From: an uncultured Chloroflexia bacterium
GTDB taxonomy: Bacteria > Chloroflexota > Limnocylindria > Limnocylindrales > CSP1-4
Reading direction: 5' to 3'
Length of the DNA: 64,000 nt
Assembly (NCBI GenBank): GCA_963734535.1
Contig: CAVTHS010000002.1
Location: forward strand, 96,001 to 160,000
Under the pieces are notes generated by a model. That model did no database searches, had not been told where the DNA came from, and worked only from the letters and a program-made list of their open reading frames with translations. A program made the position numbers and the translations under genes. Positions 46,674 to 51,238 of this stretch are shown here, one piece after another (the first letter of the stretch is position 1; each line of letters begins with the position of its first letter).

Positions 46674-46765
46674 GGAGAGGTCGCATAGAGGCCTAGTGCA
46701 GCGGTTTGCTAAACCGCCATGTGGGGTAACCTGCATCGAGGGTTCGAATCCCTCCCTCTCCGCCA
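46674..46765 (+). tRNA. tRNA-Ser(GCT)
   Basis: Anticodon arm GCGGT-TTGCTAA-ACCGC, long variable arm, CCA. Confidence 0.96.
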
Positions 46766-46773
46766 CCTCTCGT

Positions 46774-46849
46774 GCGCCCGTAGCTCAGTGGATAGAGCGC
46801 CAGGTTGCGGACCTGGAGGTCGTGGGTTCGAGTCCCGCCGGGCGCGCCA
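46774..46849 (+). tRNA. tRNA-Arg(GCG)
   Basis: Anticodon arm CCAGG-TTGCGGA-CCTGG, anticodon at 46807-46809, CCA. Confidence 0.93.
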
Positions 46850-46952
46850 CGCGCCTCCCCGTGGCCTCCAGGGCCCCCGGGTGACGACATCGCGCGCCCC
46901 CAGCCCGCCGATCGGCGCCTCAGTGCGCCATCCCGGCCGATCTCCAGCCGGC

Positions 46953-48239
46953 TCAGCGATGCAGGTTTCCCGCCGCCACGAAGCTCAGGCCGTGCTCGGT
47001 CAGGGCGCGCGCCGTGTGGTTCGTCGCGTCGAGCTTGTCCATGAAGTTGAGGGCGAGGTTCTCCCAGTCCCCGCTCTCGACGACCTCGGACTCCGCCCGG
47101 AAGTAGTCCAGGATGTCGGAAGGGTGCGCCCGGGCCCCGTCGACCGCCGGGTCGCCGCCCTCGTGCTTGGCCGAGATGTTGGGCACGTGGCCGGCCAACG
47201 CCATGAGCTCCTCGCGCCGGTCGTACGGCTGGAGGACGATGCTCTTGAACGTCTCGGTGATGTGGTGCTCGAAGCGGATCGCGTCCTCGAAGCCGAGCGC
47301 CCGCCGGATCTCGGCCGTGATCTCGAGCGTCTCGTTGTTCGTCGAGTTGCCCCAGTTGAAGCCGACGAGCGGCGACGTGCCGTCATCGCGGGCGAACAGC
47401 TTCGCCCCGACCATGGTCCACATCCCGGCATACGGGTTGTCGTTGCCCATGAAGACCGAGATCTTGAACTCGATGTCCACCCCCAGGCGGTGGAGGAGGT
47501 AGCCCGCCAGCACGGTCCCCGGGTTGATGTTGAGGACCTGGCGCACCCCGTACTCGGTGTAGTAGTGGAGGAACTCGTCGAGCCACAGGAGCACGTGATT
47601 GTTCGGCTGGCCGATCCCGCCGAAATACCCCGTGATCGTGGCGGGACCGCCGAGGTGGACGTTCGATCCGTCGGTGCCCTTCGTGTCGAGCGTCTCGACA
47701 TAGCTCGAGCCGATGATCTGCATGGCCGCCGCAATCGCCGGGAGGTCGCCCTCCGCCTCCTGCTCCTTCATGCGGCGGACCTGGATCCAGCGAGCCGGCA
47801 TGAGCGAGCGCTCCGCGATCGTCTTCCGGGCGGCCGCGATGACCCACGGGAAGTACTGGAGAGCGCTGACCTCGAGCGTCACCGCCATGTCGTCCGCGAA
47901 CGTCATCGAATCCGCGCGCGTGCCGAGGACGCTCCTGCGGAAGTCGGCGACGCCGACGAAGGCACCCCGGTCACGCTCCGCGGCGAGCCATTCGAGGTCC
48001 GCGAGGTATGCCGGGTGGTCGTTCCGGACGCGCTCGATGAGGGCCGGCAGCTGGCCCGCGATCCGCGCCCGGCGATTGATCTCCTCGGGTGTGCCGTACC
48101 TGGCGACGACGGCCAGGATGTCGTTGACGACCCGCGAATCCGGGTCGACCAGGAACGCGTTGAGCTCGTCGAGCCGTTCGGTCGGGATCGCGAGCCTCTG
48201 GCGGAGGTCGGCCCCGACCTCGATCACCGCGCTGGTCAT
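46953..48239 (-). CDS. Uncharacterised enzyme-like protein (428 aa), translationally coupled to panB
   Basis: Globular, non-repetitive composition with strong GC3 bias; ATGA overlap with the panB stop. Family not recognised. Confidence 0.8.
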   Translation of the reverse strand: MTSAVIEVGADLRQRLAIPTERLDELNAFLVDPDSRVVNDILAVVARYGTPEEINRRARIAGQLPALIERVRNDHPAYLADLEWLAAERDRGAFVGVADFRRSVLGTRADSMTFADDMAVTLEVSALQYFPWVIAAARKTIAERSLMPARWIQVRRMKEQEAEGDLPAIAAAMQIIGSSYVETLDTKGTDGSNVHLGGPATITGYFGGIGQPNNHVLLWLDEFLHYYTEYGVRQVLNINPGTVLAGYLLHRLGVDIEFKISVFMGNDNPYAGMWTMVGAKLFARDDGTSPLVGFNWGNSTNNETLEITAEIRRALGFEDAIRFEHHITETFKSIVLQPYDRREELMALAGHVPNISAKHEGGDPAVDGARAHPSDILDYFRAESEVVESGDWENLALNFMDKLDATNHTARALTEHGLSFVAAGNLHR

Positions 48240-49090
48240 CCGAGCAGCCTCGCGAGCTCGTCGTATTCCTCGTCCTTCATCCCGAACCAGTTCTCCGGCT
48301 GGGGGAACGTCCGCTCGGTCACCTCGCGGACGTAGCCCGCGAGGCCCTCGCGAATCACGGCCCCGGCGTCGGCGAAGACCTTCGCCATCCGCGGCGTGAA
48401 CTTCGGGTAGAGCGCGAACGCGTCGTGGTAGATGAGCAGCTGGCCGTGGGCGTCGGGCCCCGAGCCCAGGCTCATGATGATGCAGTGCTGCGCCCGCTCG
48501 GTGATGAGCCGGCAGACACGGTCGGGGACGAGCTCCAGCAGGATGCAGAACGCCCCCGCCTCCTCGAGGGCCCGCGCGTCGTCGACGATCTTCTTCGCCT
48601 GTGCCGCGCCCTTGCCCTGGAGACGGAAGCCGCCGAGCGCGCTCACGCTCTGCGGGGTCAGGCCAAGGTGGCCGATGACCGGGATGCCGGCCCGCGCGAT
48701 TCCCGCGACGCGATCCGCCATCTCCGCGCCGCCTTCGAGCTTGACCGCATCGCAGCCCGCCTCGGCCATGAAGCGGCCCGCATTGCGGATCGCGCTCTCG
48801 ACGCTCGGCTGGTAGCTCATGTACGGCATGTCGCCGACCAGCCAGGCCGTCGGCGCCCCGCGGCGCACGGCCGCCGAGTGCCGGATCATGTCGTCCATCG
48901 TCACGGGCAGGGTGCTGTCGAAGCCGAGCATCGTCATGCCCAGGCTGTCCCCCACGAGGATCATGTCGATGCCCGCCTGTTCCTGCAGGTGGGCGGTCGG
49001 GTAGTCGTAGCAGGTCAGCCACGTGATCGGCGTGCCCTCCGCCACCTTCGCGAACAGCGCGGGCAGGGTGACCTTCTTCCGATCCGCCAC
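48236..49090 (-). CDS. panB: 3-methyl-2-oxobutanoate hydroxymethyltransferase
   Basis: TCYD, ILVGDSLGM, GDMPYMSY, VKLEGG and GHLGLTPQ motifs; GAGGAGG RBS before GTG 49090. Confidence 0.93.
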   Translation of the reverse strand: MADRKKVTLPALFAKVAEGTPITWLTCYDYPTAHLQEQAGIDMILVGDSLGMTMLGFDSTLPVTMDDMIRHSAAVRRGAPTAWLVGDMPYMSYQPSVESAIRNAGRFMAEAGCDAVKLEGGAEMADRVAGIARAGIPVIGHLGLTPQSVSALGGFRLQGKGAAQAKKIVDDARALEEAGAFCILLELVPDRVCRLITERAQHCIIMSLGSGPDAHGQLLIYHDAFALYPKFTPRMAKVFADAGAVIREGLAGYVREVTERTFPQPENWFGMKDEEYDELARLLG

Positions 49091-49193
49091 CGTGGCCTCC
49101 TCTCGTGGACGGCCGCGGCGCGGCAACGTCCAGCCGCATCATTCCGGGCCCGCCAGGGTCCGGGGAAGTGCCGTTCCGCCTACACTGCCGCCC

Positions 49194-50090
49194 ATGTCGG
49201 AACGAACCCAACCCCGGATCGGCGTCGTCGGCCTCGGCACCATGGGCGGCGCCATGGCCGCCAACCTGGCCCGGGCCGGGTTCCCGCTCGCCGCCTGGAA
49301 CCGGACCCCGGGGCGCTCGCACGAGCTCGAAGCGCTGGGCATCGACATCGCCGCGACGCCGCGGGCCCTCGCCTCGACGGCCGACATCGTGCTGGTCTGC
49401 GTCTCCGACACGCCAGACGTCGAGGCCGTCCTCTTCGGCCCGGAGGGCGTCGCCGAGGGTGCGGCGCCCGGGTCCCTCGTCATCGACTGCTCCACGATCG
49501 ATCCCGCCGGCAGCCGGCGATTCGCGGCTCGCCTCGCCGAGAACGGGATCGGCTTCGTCGACGCACCGGTCACCGGCGGCAGCGAAGGCGCGCGGAACGC
49601 GACGCTCGCGATCCTCGTTGGCGGCGCCCCGGCCGATGTCGAGCGTGCCCGGCCGGTCCTCGCGGCGATCGGCCGGACGATCACGCACCTCGGCCCCGTC
49701 GGGTCCGGCCAGGCGGCGAAGGCCGTCAACCAGGTGATCCTCGCGGCCACCTACCTGGGCGTCGCCGAAGGCCTCGTCCTTGCCCTCAAGGCCGGTCTCG
49801 ACCCGCACCAGGTGGTGGAGGCCCTCTCCGGCGGGGCGGCCCAGAGCTGGGTCCTCGCCAATCGGAGCGGGCGCATGCTCGCCAACGAGTACCCGCTCGG
49901 CTTCAAGGTCGCGCTGCACCTGAAGGACCTCGGGATCGCGCTGGACATCGCCCGCGAATCCGGCGCTGTCCTGCCGATCGCGGGGCTCGTCGCCCAGCTC
50001 GAGGCCGGCCTCGTCGCGACAGGTCATGGAGACGACGACATGTCCGCCCTCGCCCGCGCGATCAGGGGGCTCTCGGGCCTCGAGGCGTGA
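49194..50090 (+). CDS. NAD(P)-dependent beta-hydroxyacid dehydrogenase (3-hydroxyisobutyrate dehydrogenase / tartronate semialdehyde reductase family)
   Basis: GLGTMG, DAPVTGG, GSGQAAKAVNQ and FKVALHLKDL motifs. Confidence 0.9.
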   Translation: MSERTQPRIGVVGLGTMGGAMAANLARAGFPLAAWNRTPGRSHELEALGIDIAATPRALASTADIVLVCVSDTPDVEAVLFGPEGVAEGAAPGSLVIDCSTIDPAGSRRFAARLAENGIGFVDAPVTGGSEGARNATLAILVGGAPADVERARPVLAAIGRTITHLGPVGSGQAAKAVNQVILAATYLGVAEGLVLALKAGLDPHQVVEALSGGAAQSWVLANRSGRMLANEYPLGFKVALHLKDLGIALDIARESGAVLPIAGLVAQLEAGLVATGHGDDDMSALARAIRGLSGLEA

Positions 50091-50122
50091 ACGGCACGAC
50101 CGAGGCAGGGTAGGCTGTCGCC

Positions 50123-50563
50123 ATGCACTACGAGCTCTTCATGGGGGCCGCGCTCGCCGAGGCTCGCGCCGCGGTGGAGAAGGGCGAGCGCCCGCGCGGT
50201 GCCGCCGCGGTCCTCGACGAGGCCCTCGTTGCCAGCGGCCACGAGGAGGTGGTCGCGCGCACCGACCCGACCGCGCACGCGATCGTCGTGACCCTTCGCG
50301 AGGCCGCGGGGCGGCTCGGGAAGACGTCGCTGGCCGGCGTCACCGTCTTCGCGGTCGTCGAGCCCTGCGCAATGTGCGTCGGCGCCCTGCTCGAGTCGGA
50401 CGTCGACCGTCTCGTCTACGCGATCCCGAGCCCGTTCGCCGGTGCCGCCGGCTCGGTGATCCAGCTGGCCGATCATCCCGCGCTCTCGCGGCGGATGGAC
50501 CTCGTCTCGGGGATCCTCCGGGCCGACGCCGCCGACCTGATCGCGGTCGCCACCGAAGCCTGA
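50123..50563 (+). CDS. tadA: TadA-like deaminase-fold protein lacking the catalytic Glu (HAE to HAI)
   Basis: DPTAHA, EPCAMC and GAAGS motifs; sits in the tadA-ffs-dnaX-ybaB-recR gene order. Confidence 0.8.
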   Translation: MHYELFMGAALAEARAAVEKGERPRGAAAVLDEALVASGHEEVVARTDPTAHAIVVTLREAAGRLGKTSLAGVTVFAVVEPCAMCVGALLESDVDRLVYAIPSPFAGAAGSVIQLADHPALSRRMDLVSGILRADAADLIAVATEA

Positions 50564-50674: not shown

Positions 50675-50760
<86 letters not shown>

Positions 50761-50805: not shown

Positions 50806-50893
50806 GGAGAGGTCGCCTAGAGGCCTAGGGCGCCGCACTGGAAATGCGGTATGGGGCAACCCATCGAGGGTTCGAATCCCTCCCTCTCCGCCA
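50806..50893 (+). tRNA. tRNA-Ser(GGA)
   Basis: Anticodon arm CCGCA-CTGGAAA-TGCGG, CCA. Confidence 0.96.
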
Positions 50894-50932: not shown

Positions 50933-51198
50933 GCCGTGCTAGGCGGGGAACTAGCGGTGCCCTGTACCTGCAATCCGCTCCAGCAGGGCTGAATTCCCTC
51001 CCGAGGTCCTCGTCTTCGAGAGCCGCCGGCGTGAACGGCGCCGAGGATCGGGTCCCGCGCAGCGGCGACACGCGAACCGCGTCAGGTCCGGAAGGAAGCA
51101 GCGCTAAGCGAGGCTCGTCGGGTGCCGCGGCCAGGCCTGGTCTGAGTCGATCACGTCGGTGGGCGCGGGGACGGCTTGATCGACGGAGGGTGCACGGC
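50933..51198 (+). ncRNA. ffs: Signal recognition particle RNA, large (Alu-containing) bacterial type
   Basis: TCAGGTCCGGAAGGAAGCAGC helix 8, Alu-like 5' domain, terminal pairing GCCGTGC/GCACGGC, TATGAT just upstream. Confidence 0.93.
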
Positions 51199-51238
51199 AA
51201 ATCTTCTTCCTGTTGCCGCGACCCGGATCGGGAGCCCA

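What the first reader, a model, noticed from the sequence alone, without database searches (positions are those of the whole stretch)
46774..50563. Catalytically dead TadA retained near a tRNA-Arg that no longer needs editing (GCG anticodon)
Seen: the TadA homologue (50123-50563) reads DPTAHA-I-VVTLR where active TadA has DPTAHA-E. The codon is ATC at 50282, a multi-base substitution with register kept. It also departs from TadA at the tRNA-contact positions: EVPVG to ERPRG, N46 to E, D108/K110 to S/F (E. coli numbering, aligned by eye), and loss of the C-terminal FF..R helix. All three Zn ligands (H, C, C) remain, the ORF is intact, it has its own leaderless -10 (TAGGCT 6 nt before ATG), and it keeps the tadA-ffs-dnaX position. 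The tRNA-Arg 3.3 kb away has anticodon GCG rather than ACG. Known: TadA makes I34 in tRNA-Arg(ACG) using that Glu, and lineages using tRNA-Arg(GCG) usually lose tadA. Inference: this lineage rewired CGN decoding yet keeps TadA as a Zn-binding pseudoenzyme with a different, undescribed role.
Basis: partly seen in the sequence, partly recalled or inferred. Interest (0 to 1): 0.8.

Follow-up and report, generated by a model that had tools for sequence, protein, structure and literature searches.

The report
Conserved glutamate-less TadA in Limnocylindria
A whole clade of soil and freshwater Chloroflexota keeps the gene for the tRNA-editing enzyme TadA without its catalytic glutamate, under strong selection, although these genomes hold no tRNA left to edit, so the "dead" enzyme must do something else.

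Summary
The ORF at 50123-50563 is a TadA orthologue that reads H-A-I where TadA has H-A-E. It keeps the zinc ligands and sits in the usual tadA / tRNA-Ser / SRP RNA / dnaX position. The genome has tRNA-Arg(GCG), (UCG) and (CCG), no A34 tRNA and no second TadA.

It is not a private mutation or a sequencing error. All 75 orthologues read from two families of the class (record titles: Chloroflexota, Limnocylindria) have V, I or L at that site. They form one clade (support 0.99-1.0) and evolve under purifying selection (pairwise dN/dS about 0.2; codon-model omega about 0.03).

Within the class, canonical HAE TadA goes with tRNA-Arg(ACG), and glutamate-less or absent TadA goes with GCG.

A second, independent glutamate-less clade, one member labelled Omnitrophica, lost the same residues.

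Best reading: a selected, non-catalytic, homodimeric zinc protein derived from TadA. Its role is unknown. None of five literature searches listed a paper on it.

The parts
46674..46765 (+). tRNA-Ser(GCT), conserved left neighbour of the tRNA-Arg
   Evidence: ARAGORN and Rfam tRNA at 53.9 bits. The same pair was seen in 28 of 30 genus loci.
46774..46849 (+). tRNA-Arg, anticodon GCG at 46807-46809, anticodon loop UUGCGGA
   Evidence: ARAGORN, Rfam 71.2 bits, sequence. GCG in 30 of 30 genus loci. GCG pattern in 44 of 49 f1, 7 of 7 f2 and 51 of 55 f4 genomes.
50110..50115 (+). -10-like hexamer TAGGCT, 7 nt before the ATG. No Shine-Dalgarno sequence in between, which suggests a leaderless mRNA.
   Evidence: Sequence. 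TANNNT at -11 to -14 in 58 of 75 orthologous loci, including 25 of 25 in the genus and 29 of 30 in other genera of the family.
50123..50563 (+). Glutamate-less TadA orthologue, 146 aa plus stop
   Evidence: AlphaFold2 pLDDT 97.1. Foldseek TM 0.94-0.97 to TadA structures.
50276..50284 (+). Codons for H52-A53-I54: Zn-ligand His, then Ile in place of the catalytic Glu
   Evidence: Alignment to TadA chains. V, I or L in 75 of 75 clade members read.
50366..50377 (+). Codons for C82-A-M-C85, the two Zn-ligand cysteines of PCxxC
   Evidence: Invariant in the 74 glutamate-less sequences aligned.
50675..50760 (+). tRNA-Ser(CGA), 111 nt after the ORF's stop
   Evidence: Next to the tadA-like gene in 28 of 30 loci from other genera of the family, and next to canonical tadA in 7 of 9 other Chloroflexota loci.
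50806..50893 (+). tRNA-Ser(GGA)
50934..51197 (+). Large bacterial SRP RNA (ffs)
   Evidence: Rfam RF01854, 184.2 bits.
51176..53344 (+). dnaX-like ORF (DNA polymerase III tau/gamma). The listed TTG start overlaps the SRP RNA, so the true start is probably further downstream.
   Evidence: ORF list. The name comes from the P-loop and Zn-module motifs seen in the translation and was not checked against a family library.

Best explanation
The ORF is the true orthologue of tadA. In the common ancestor of two Limnocylindria families it lost the proton-shuttle Glu (to Val, later Ile in part of this genus) together with several residues that canonical TadA keeps (V28, N46, R98, K110, H128, the C-terminal FF). 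It kept the zinc site, the fold and the TadA-type dimer interface.

These genomes decode CGN the three-tRNA way: G34 reads CGC and CGU, U34 reads CGA, and C34 reads CGG. There is no A34 tRNA to edit.

The protein is therefore a pseudo-deaminase: a leaderless-expressed, homodimeric zinc protein that is selected for a non-catalytic job.

Shown: orthology, loss of the catalytic and contact residues, clade-wide purifying selection, absence of substrate tRNA and of an active paralogue, and dispensability in the genome-reduced sister family.

Inferred: it no longer deaminates, it still binds zinc and dimerises, and its retained role is most likely binding of an RNA or protein partner through the conserved pocket and dimer face rather than chemistry. 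The partner is unknown.
For: Orthology:
- Gapless alignment to TadA chains, TM 0.94-0.97.
- Same slot before tRNA-Ser(CGA) / tRNA-Ser(GGA) / ffs / dnaX as in this window. Canonical tadA of other Chloroflexota also lies beside tRNA-Ser(CGA), in 7 of 9 loci.

Clade-wide loss of Glu:
- V, I or L in 25 of 25 genus sequences, 30 of 30 from other genera of the family and 20 of 20 from family f4.
- One clade, support 0.993 and 1.0.

Selection:
- NG86 median dN/dS 0.20, 0.23 and 0.235 in the three sets, against 0.32 for the class's canonical TadA.
- GY+F3X4 omega 0.031-0.034 in the genus.
- H57, C87, C90, DPTAHA and EPCxMCxGA are invariant in 74 sequences.
- Length stays at 144-160 aa.
- The -10 element is conserved in 58 of 75 loci.

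No substrate and no partner:
- 0 of 51 tRNA genes have A34.
- ACG pattern in 0 of 49 f1 and 0 of 55 f4 genomes.
- One TadA-family hit in the genome. The other CDA-fold gene is an ordinary cdd.

Co-variation within the class:
- 25 of the 26 family-f3 genomes with the ACG pattern have a TadA hit. All 28 f3 TadA sequences read have HAE.
- The 3 f3 genomes with the GCG pattern have no TadA hit.
- In the phylum sample, all 9 genomes with TadA above the cut-off have ACG and none has GCG.

Dimer: score 0.86, best of 3 controls 0.01. That mark was reached by 20 of 30 proteins solved as pairs and 1 of 23 solved as single chains. The runs agree in 100% of contacts and the partner's pLDDT is at least 94. 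TadA dimers are solved, so this pass may come from the model's memory.

Independent repeat: five glutamate-less TadA-like proteins (HAV, HAI, HPI, HAT) nest among HAE relatives of another phylum. They lost the same conserved residues V28, N46, E59, R98 and H128.
Against: - No biochemical datum exists. Inactivity, zinc binding and dimerisation are all inferred.
- The contact residues K110, N46 and the FF tail are lost, and the protein is acidic (pI 4.96, net charge -8, 11 K+R against 19 in canonical relatives). This argues against tRNA binding in the TadA manner and leaves the partner open.
- The gene was replaced by another ORF in the genome-reduced sister family (0 of 42 genomes with a hit; locus), and 5 of 78 family genomes gave no hit. 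The role is therefore not essential everywhere.
- Position 46 is acidic in most members (D or E), next to a 97% conserved His, so a relocated catalytic pair cannot be excluded.
- dS is constrained by 72% G+C, which distorts pairwise dN/dS.
- Expression evidence is weak: contigs of one RNA library lie on 50211-50524, and that does not show transcription.
Confidence: 0.62

Rival explanations
1. It is still an enzyme. The zinc-bound water is used with another general base (for example the conserved His45 with Asp/Glu46), on a new substrate or in a new reaction.
For: The zinc ligands and the DPTAHA and EPCxMC pocket are invariant in 74 sequences. H at position 45 is 97% conserved, and D or E at 46 is the majority residue in each of the three sets (E 95%, D 86%, D 80%). 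Selection is as strong as on the canonical TadA of the class.
Against: Position 46 is not universally acidic: it is R in four f4 sequences (L126, L127, L129, L130) and N in two f1 sequences. The independent second clade has T, D or H there. As recalled, every characterised CDA-fold deaminase needs the helix-2 Glu. The invariant residues also lie in the predicted dimer interface (residues 47-70 and 82-93), which explains their conservation without catalysis.
Confidence: 0.15
2. The gene is kept for a nucleic-acid-level reason: it carries the promoter and leader of the downstream tRNA-Ser / tRNA-Ser / SRP RNA / dnaX unit, and the protein itself is irrelevant.
For: A conserved -10 element lies upstream. 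tRNA-Ser(CGA) starts 111 nt after the stop. The arrangement is conserved across the family.
Against: Amino-acid-level purifying selection and invariant Zn ligands are not explained by a promoter role. In the sister family a different ORF fills the slot before the same tRNA.
Confidence: 0.05
3. It is an ADAT3-like inactive subunit that pairs with an active deaminase encoded elsewhere.
For: Val at the Glu position, as recalled for Tad3/ADAT3 (the table in PMC3239186 says only that Tad3 lacks the E of HxE, passages seen). ADAT3 chains match at 1.9e-11.
Against: Only one TadA-family match in the genome. The other CDA-fold gene is a cdd next to a nucleoside phosphorylase. There is no A34 tRNA to edit. 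The glutamate-less clade arose inside bacterial TadA, and the protein lacks an ADAT3 N-terminal domain (146 aa).
Confidence: 0.05
4. It is a decaying relic or an assembly/sequencing artefact.
For: It scores below the NCBIfam cut-off. The MAG has 7.1% contamination.
Against: 75 of 75 orthologues have intact frames and the same substitution class. dN/dS is 0.2 or less.
Confidence: 0.02

Closest known systems
Bacterial TadA, tRNA adenosine(34) deaminase (NCBIfam NF008113; structures 1Z3A, 2B3J, 7CPH)
   Same: Same fold (TM 0.94-0.97), gapless alignment, same zinc ligands, same predicted dimer, same genomic slot.
   Different: No catalytic Glu. N46, K110, H128 and the FF tail are changed. Below the family cut-off. 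No tRNA-Arg(ACG) in the genome.
Eukaryotic Tad3/ADAT3, the inactive subunit of the ADAT2/ADAT3 heterodimer
   Same: A TadA-derived protein that lacks the Glu of HxE and keeps the zinc site (PMC3239186, passages seen). Val at that position is recalled. ADAT3 chains are hit at 1.9e-11.
   Different: Independent origin within bacteria. No active partner paralogue. No N-terminal domain. No I34 tRNAs at all in these genomes.
Mollicutes that replaced tRNA-Arg(ACG) by GCG plus UCG and lost tadA (Yokobori et al. 2013, PMC3711424; abstract and passages seen)
   Same: Same decoding end-state: GCG and UCG tRNAs with no A-to-I editing.
   Different: There tadA was lost outright. Here it is kept without its Glu in two families, was replaced only in the genome-reduced sister family, and tRNA-Arg(CCG) is retained.
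Bacterial lineages reported to use tRNA-Arg(GCG): Candidate Phyla Radiation (PMC8629427, passages seen); Thermotogae and Spirochaetes (PMC8007984, passages seen)
   Same: GCG, UCG and CCG decoding of CGN without inosine. Here the same is shown to be the majority state of Chloroflexota.
   Different: Those passages do not mention a retained glutamate-less TadA.
Glutamate-less TadA beside tRNA-Arg(GCG) in an Omnitrophota-labelled clade
   Same: Same phenomenon. Here five such proteins were found, one named 'Candidatus Omnitrophica' by its source. They share the losses at V28, N46, E59, R98 and H128 and read MCVGA in four of the five.
   Different: Independent origin: they nest among HAE relatives of another phylum. 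Their tRNA context was not checked here.

Membership tests
Bacterial TadA (NF008113 equivalog) | CDA-type deaminase fold with the TadA topology | tested here: met
   AlphaFold2 pLDDT 97.1. Foldseek TM 0.94-0.97, rmsd 0.9-1.2 A to TadA of five species.
Bacterial TadA (NF008113 equivalog) | Zinc ligands: His of H-A-E and the two Cys of PCxxC | tested here: met
   H52, C82 and C85 are present and invariant in 74 clade members.
Bacterial TadA (NF008113 equivalog) | Catalytic proton-shuttle Glu of the H-A-E motif | tested here: not met
   Ile54 here. V, I or L in 75 of 75 clade members.
Bacterial TadA (NF008113 equivalog) | Score at or above the curated cut-off (150 bits) | tested here: not met
   106.4 bits. 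0 of 121 genomes of the order exceed the cut-off.
Bacterial TadA (NF008113 equivalog) | A substrate tRNA with A34, tRNA-Arg(ACG), in the same genome | tested here: not met
   0 of 51 predicted tRNAs have A34 (MAG 89.9% complete). ACG pattern in 0 of 49 f1 and 0 of 55 f4 genomes.
Bacterial TadA (NF008113 equivalog) | Residues conserved in canonical TadA and recalled as anticodon-loop contacts (N46, K110, C-terminal FF..R) | tested here: not met
   E41, F105 and no FF here. These positions are conserved in the class's canonical TadA and not in the glutamate-less clade. Their role as contacts is recalled, not tested.
Bacterial TadA (NF008113 equivalog) | Orthologous genomic position (tadA before tRNA-Ser / ffs / dnaX) | tested here: met
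Bacterial TadA (NF008113 equivalog) | A-to-I deaminase activity on tRNA | not testable with these tools
   Needs an enzyme assay.
Tad3/ADAT3-type pseudo-deaminase | Glu of HxE replaced while the zinc site is kept | tested here: met
   The family feature is taken from PMC3239186.
Tad3/ADAT3-type pseudo-deaminase | Obligate heterodimer with an active Tad2/ADAT2 paralogue | tested here: not met
   One TadA-family gene in the genome. The second CDA-fold gene is cdd.
Tad3/ADAT3-type pseudo-deaminase | Descent from the eukaryotic Tad2/Tad3 duplication, with an added N-terminal domain | tested here: not met
   146 aa, deaminase domain only. The clade arises among bacterial TadA.
Guanine deaminase (GuaD-type CDA fold) | Best match and fold closer to GuaD than to TadA, with HAE present | tested here: not met
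   TadA chains score 1e-20 to 1e-24, against 8e-13 for GuaD. The HAE paralogues of some genus genomes (L029-L033, with a PFGAV-type motif) are separate genes.

The most novel reading that the evidence does not exclude
TadA has a second, deaminase-independent function that predates the loss of editing. Once tRNA-Arg(GCG) made editing obsolete, that second function alone kept the gene. This happened at least twice independently, in Limnocylindria and in an Omnitrophota-labelled clade, with convergent loss of the same five conserved residues and a shift to MCVGA. These glutamate-less forms would then be natural separation-of-function alleles that make the hidden role of an otherwise essential enzyme directly testable.
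Probability: 0.35. Interest if true: 0.85.

Novelty: new variant of a known kind. Interest (0 to 1): 0.72.

Why it matters
TadA is treated as a single-purpose enzyme of bacterial translation (recalled: essential in E. coli) and is the scaffold of adenine base editors. Here a large clade keeps it for a very long time without its catalytic residue and without any substrate tRNA, and a second clade did the same independently. That implies a function nobody has assigned to this fold in bacteria.

The finding also gives a clean natural series inside one class: active TadA with ACG, dead TadA with GCG, and no TadA with GCG. This series can be used to study how a wobble-decoding system is replaced.

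It also documents that most sampled Chloroflexota decode CGN without inosine. Automatic annotation calls such proteins tRNA(adenine34) deaminase or nucleoside deaminase (names seen), which is probably wrong for this clade.

Tried and rejected
- Raw-read confirmation of the two sites. The look-up of sequencing runs found no run holding half or more of the sampled words. Read laying laid contigs only. A probable DNA run (X19) covers the ORF with two contigs of a related strain. RNA-library contigs lie mostly on the tRNAs and the SRP RNA, with depth 41-52 on 50211-50524 in one run. Uncovered parts say nothing, and no transcription claim is made.
Only the genus codon run finished (read). Pairwise NG86 and FastTree were used instead, so deep branching order and rooting (midpoint) are not reliable.
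- Relocated catalytic acid at position 46: not universal.
- ADAT2-like partner: none found.
- The canonical 184-bit TadA in bin G188 (family f4) lies on a 3.4-kb contig and groups with proteins of another phylum. It was treated as probable contamination but was left inside the 'canonical' set of 30 used.
- Rows dropped: g1_L026 was left out because its frame runs on to 223 aa. Trees used subsets: 24 of 74 glutamate-less sequences and 16 of 74.
- Literature: five searches listed no paper on a bacterial glutamate-less TadA. Rafels-Ybern et al. 2019 is not held and was not seen; it may describe TadA-less phyla. Supplementary files were not consulted.
- Earlier scan notes by sequence and by place gave nothing relevant.

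Full report
**What is in the window.** The ORF at 50123-50563 (+) encodes 146 aa. It matches Pfam MafB19-deam (5.4e-19) and dCMP_cyt_deam_1 (5.3e-17). Its best NCBIfam hit is the TadA equivalog NF008113 at 106.4 bits, under the 150-bit cut-off. Against solved structures it aligns without gaps to TadA chains (3ocq 1.9e-24, 1z3a 1e-22, 2b3j 1.2e-20), and more weakly to guanine/guanosine deaminases and ADAT3. That alignment places H52-A53-I54 (codons CAC GCG ATC at 50276-50284) on the H-A-E motif and C82/C85 on PCxxC. In E. coli numbering (query + 5; the numbering is recalled) the protein reads E-R-P-R-G for the EVPVG-type motif. It has E at position 46, S at 108 and F at 110, and it ends before the FF..R tail.

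The tRNA at 46774-46849 has anticodon GCG and follows tRNA-Ser(GCT). Downstream of the ORF lie tRNA-Ser(CGA), tRNA-Ser(GGA), a large SRP RNA (184 bits) and a dnaX-like ORF.

**The genome.** The window belongs to a 3.2-Mb, 14-contig, 72% G+C MAG (89.9% complete, 7.1% contamination). ARAGORN finds 51 tRNA genes, and none has A at position 34. The Arg set is GCG, TCG, CCG, TCT and CCT. Two further 92-nt 'Arg-CCG' calls are probably false; the one in the window has no Rfam match. The TadA model matches only this ORF. The only other CDA-fold gene reads CAE...PCGGCRQ, sits next to a nucleoside phosphorylase, and is an ordinary cytidine deaminase.

**Not a private mutation.**
- All 24 other genomes of the genus that were searched have an orthologue at 72-97% identity. 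With the window's own, the 25 sequences read HAI (9), HAV (15) or HAL (1), and never HAE.
- All 42 genus genomes match the tRNA. All 30 loci fetched hold tRNA-Arg(GCG), 28 of them next to tRNA-Ser(GCT).
- In the order, 73 of 78 genomes of the same family (22 of 24 genera in the sample) have a hit. None of 121 genomes exceeds the cut-off.
- All 30 loci fetched from other genera read DPTAHAV at 53-65% identity to the window's protein. In 28 of the 30 the two tRNA-Ser genes lie beside it.
- A second family of the class (f4) has hits in 52 of 55 genomes. All 20 loci fetched read HAV (19) or HAL (1) at 47-56% identity, and tRNA-Arg(GCG) is visible in 6 of them.
- Record titles of 24 related loci call these MAGs Chloroflexota, and 6 of the 24 say Candidatus Limnocylindrales or Limnocylindria.

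**A natural series inside one class.**
- Family f3 and the single f5 genome carry canonical TadA. All 30 top-scoring loci read DPTAHAE with VP[IV]GA, HN, a conserved K at position 110 and a C-terminal FF.
- The ACG pattern occurs in 26 of 38 f3 genomes, and in 0 of 49 f1, 0 of 7 f2, 0 of 55 f4 and 0 of 1 f5 genomes.
- The GCG pattern occurs in 44 of 49 f1, 7 of 7 f2, 51 of 55 f4, 3 of 38 f3 and 0 of 1 f5 genomes.
- Of the 26 f3 genomes with ACG, 25 had a TadA hit. The exception is G175, which is 89% complete.
- The three f3 genomes with GCG (G157, G187, G225) are not among the rows with a hit. G157 (97% complete) and G187 gave only 47- and 41-bit CDA-family matches.
- The genome-reduced sister family f2 (1.0-1.4 Mb) has no TadA hit in 0 of 42 genomes. 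It has tRNA-Arg(GCG) beside tRNA-Ser(GCT) in 16 loci of 15 genomes, plus tRNA-Arg(TCG). In the one f2 locus read, a 135-aa unrelated ORF fills the slot between the upstream dehydrogenase gene and tRNA-Ser(CGA).

**The phylum.** In 121 Chloroflexota genomes of about 90% completeness or more:
- 27 have a TadA-family hit at 1e-20, and 9 exceed the cut-off.
- 92 have the GCG pattern and 11 the ACG pattern.
- All 9 genomes with TadA above the cut-off have ACG and none has GCG.

GCG without TadA is therefore the usual state of the phylum. The GCG tRNA's D-arm and anticodon-arm string is identical in f4 and in a genome of another family (G255). The ACG and GCG tRNAs differ throughout the anticodon arm (loop CUACGAA against UUGCGGA), so GCG here is not a fresh A34G point mutant. 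Canonical tadA of other Chloroflexota also sits beside tRNA-Ser(CGA), in 7 of 9 loci. This supports the view that the glutamate-less gene is the orthologue, left in its old place.

**Selection.**
- Frames are intact and 144-160 aa long in 74 of 75 sequences. One runs on to 223 aa and was dropped.
- Pairwise NG86 dN/dS medians are 0.20 (genus, 276 pairs), 0.23 (other genera, 425 usable of 435) and 0.235 (f4, 190 pairs). The 30 canonical sequences give 0.32.
- The one codon model that finished (GY+F3X4, 24 genus sequences) logged omega 0.034 and 0.031.
- H57, C87, C90, the DPTAHA string and EPCxMCxGA are invariant in 74 sequences.
- E59, N46, K110, N127, P130, W132, R133 and the FF motif, all conserved in the canonical set, are not kept.
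- Y8-E9-L10, G26, T79, F81, V91, L102, A114-G115 and S134 are conserved specifically in the glutamate-less clade.
- The clade is monophyletic on a long stem, with FastTree support 0.993 and 1.0 (midpoint root, subsets of sequences).
- A TANNNT hexamer 11-14 nt before the start codon is kept in 58 of 75 loci. Chance expectation is about 1% per locus at this base composition (my estimate). Several f4 loci have a GGAGG-like motif instead.

**Structure.** AlphaFold2 on a 54-row alignment gives pLDDT 97.1 and pTM 0.91, with a C-terminal helix at 133-145. Foldseek finds TadA of B. subtilis, A. aeolicus, S. aureus, Salmonella and E. coli at TM 0.94-0.97 and rmsd 0.9-1.2 A.

A two-copy prediction scored 0.86, against 0.01 for the best of 3 controls. 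That mark was reached by 20 of 30 proteins solved as pairs and 1 of 23 solved as single chains. The runs agree in 100% of contacts and the partner's pLDDT is at least 94. The interface covers residues 43-70, 82-93 and 105-122. TadA dimers are solved, so this shows likeness and not proof. It does offer a non-catalytic reason for the invariance of the DPTAH and PCxMC helices.

The protein is acidic: pI 4.96 and net charge -8, with 11 K+R against a median of 19 in the canonical set.

**A second, independent case.** One outlier of the representative search, P0104 (HPI), led to four more glutamate-less proteins (HAV, HAI, HAV, HAT). One of them is named 'Candidatus Omnitrophica bacterium' by NCBI. 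They sit among 107 HAE relatives, out of 120 sequences examined. With denser sampling they form their own clade (support 0.91) nested among those HAE relatives, far from the Limnocylindria clade. Both clades lost the same otherwise 94-100% conserved residues V28, N46, E59, R98 and H128. Four of the five read MCVGA, as the Limnocylindria clade does. I confirmed the protein part and not its tRNA context.

**Interpretation.** The catalytic function is gone. There is no proton shuttle, no N46, no substrate tRNA and no active partner. The protein is nevertheless maintained as strictly as the active enzyme of sister lineages. That combination points to a pseudo-enzyme with a retained or new non-catalytic role. 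The decay of the canonical contact positions and the acidic charge make classical anticodon-loop binding doubtful. The replacement of the gene in the streamlined family shows the role is dispensable under genome reduction. The closest analogy is eukaryotic Tad3/ADAT3, but there is no ADAT2-like partner here.

**Literature.** Loss of tadA with an ACG-to-GCG change is described for Mollicutes (PMC3711424, abstract and passages). GCG use is reported for CPR bacteria (PMC8629427, passages) and for Thermotogae and Spirochaetes (PMC8007984, passages). Five searches listed no paper on a conserved glutamate-less bacterial TadA. Rafels-Ybern et al. 2019 could not be read, and supplements were not consulted.

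**Limits.**
- All genomes are MAGs, and tRNA genes are often unassembled.
- The pattern searches miss variant D-arms: 9 of 38 f3 genomes matched neither pattern.
- Relatives are not independent samples.
- The trees are FastTree trees on about 140 columns.
- No raw reads were available.
- Five genomes flagged unpublished (G193, G207, G212, G234, G272) are counted in tallies, and two of them are among the 30 canonical sequences. No claim depends on them alone.

Noticed in passing
G000 contig C11:65735-65810 (outside the window); whole genome: ARAGORN calls a tRNA-Ile with anticodon TAT and only two CAT tRNAs. The TilS model TIGR02432 finds nothing in the genome at E <= 0.001, although it rings in all 14 control genomes. 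The lineage may therefore also do without lysidine and read AUA with a U34 tRNA. That would be a second departure from standard bacterial wobble chemistry. The MAG is 89.9% complete, so absence is not shown.
   Followed up: partly
window 63765-63856 (-); also G000 C4:59959-60050: ARAGORN reports 92-nt 'tRNA-Arg(CCG)' genes with a long extra arm. Rfam finds no tRNA at the window copy even at E <= 1. These are probably false positives in G+C-rich DNA. The 76-nt CCG tRNA on C9 looks normal.
   Followed up: partly
L155:2486-2893 (family f2 genome G092): In the 1.0-1.4-Mb sister family, the slot between the dehydrogenase gene and tRNA-Ser(CGA), where tadA sits elsewhere, holds an unrelated 135-aa ORF. 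It was not identified.
   Followed up: no
L094 = G188:C60:1-3415: An f4 bin holds, besides its glutamate-less gene, a canonical 184-bit TadA on a 3.4-kb contig. That copy groups with proteins of another phylum and is probably bin contamination.
   Followed up: partly
L153 = G175:C69:4006-7077: One f3 genome (89% complete) has tRNA-Arg(ACG) in tandem with tRNA-Arg(TCG), but only a 52-bit CDA-family hit and no TadA. Either the gene is unassembled or this is an A34 tRNA without its editor.
   Followed up: no
window 50934-51197 and 51176: The SRP RNA (Rfam) overlaps the first 22 nt of the listed dnaX-like ORF, which starts at TTG 51176. The real start codon is likely further downstream.
   Followed up: no
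L029-L033 and further rows: Many genus genomes, but not G000, carry a second CDA-fold gene with HAE, PFGAV and CEPCPMC motifs at 39-50% identity over about 100 residues. It looks like a guanine-deaminase-type nucleoside deaminase, not a TadA.
   Followed up: no
window 50123-50563 against other genera (positions 38, 42, 63, 69 and 132 of the protein): The window's genus replaced five Arg residues that are 83-100% conserved in the other glutamate-less sequences: S38, E42, G63, S69 and L132. It is also the most acidic group. This is a further lineage-specific shift whose meaning is unknown.
   Followed up: partly
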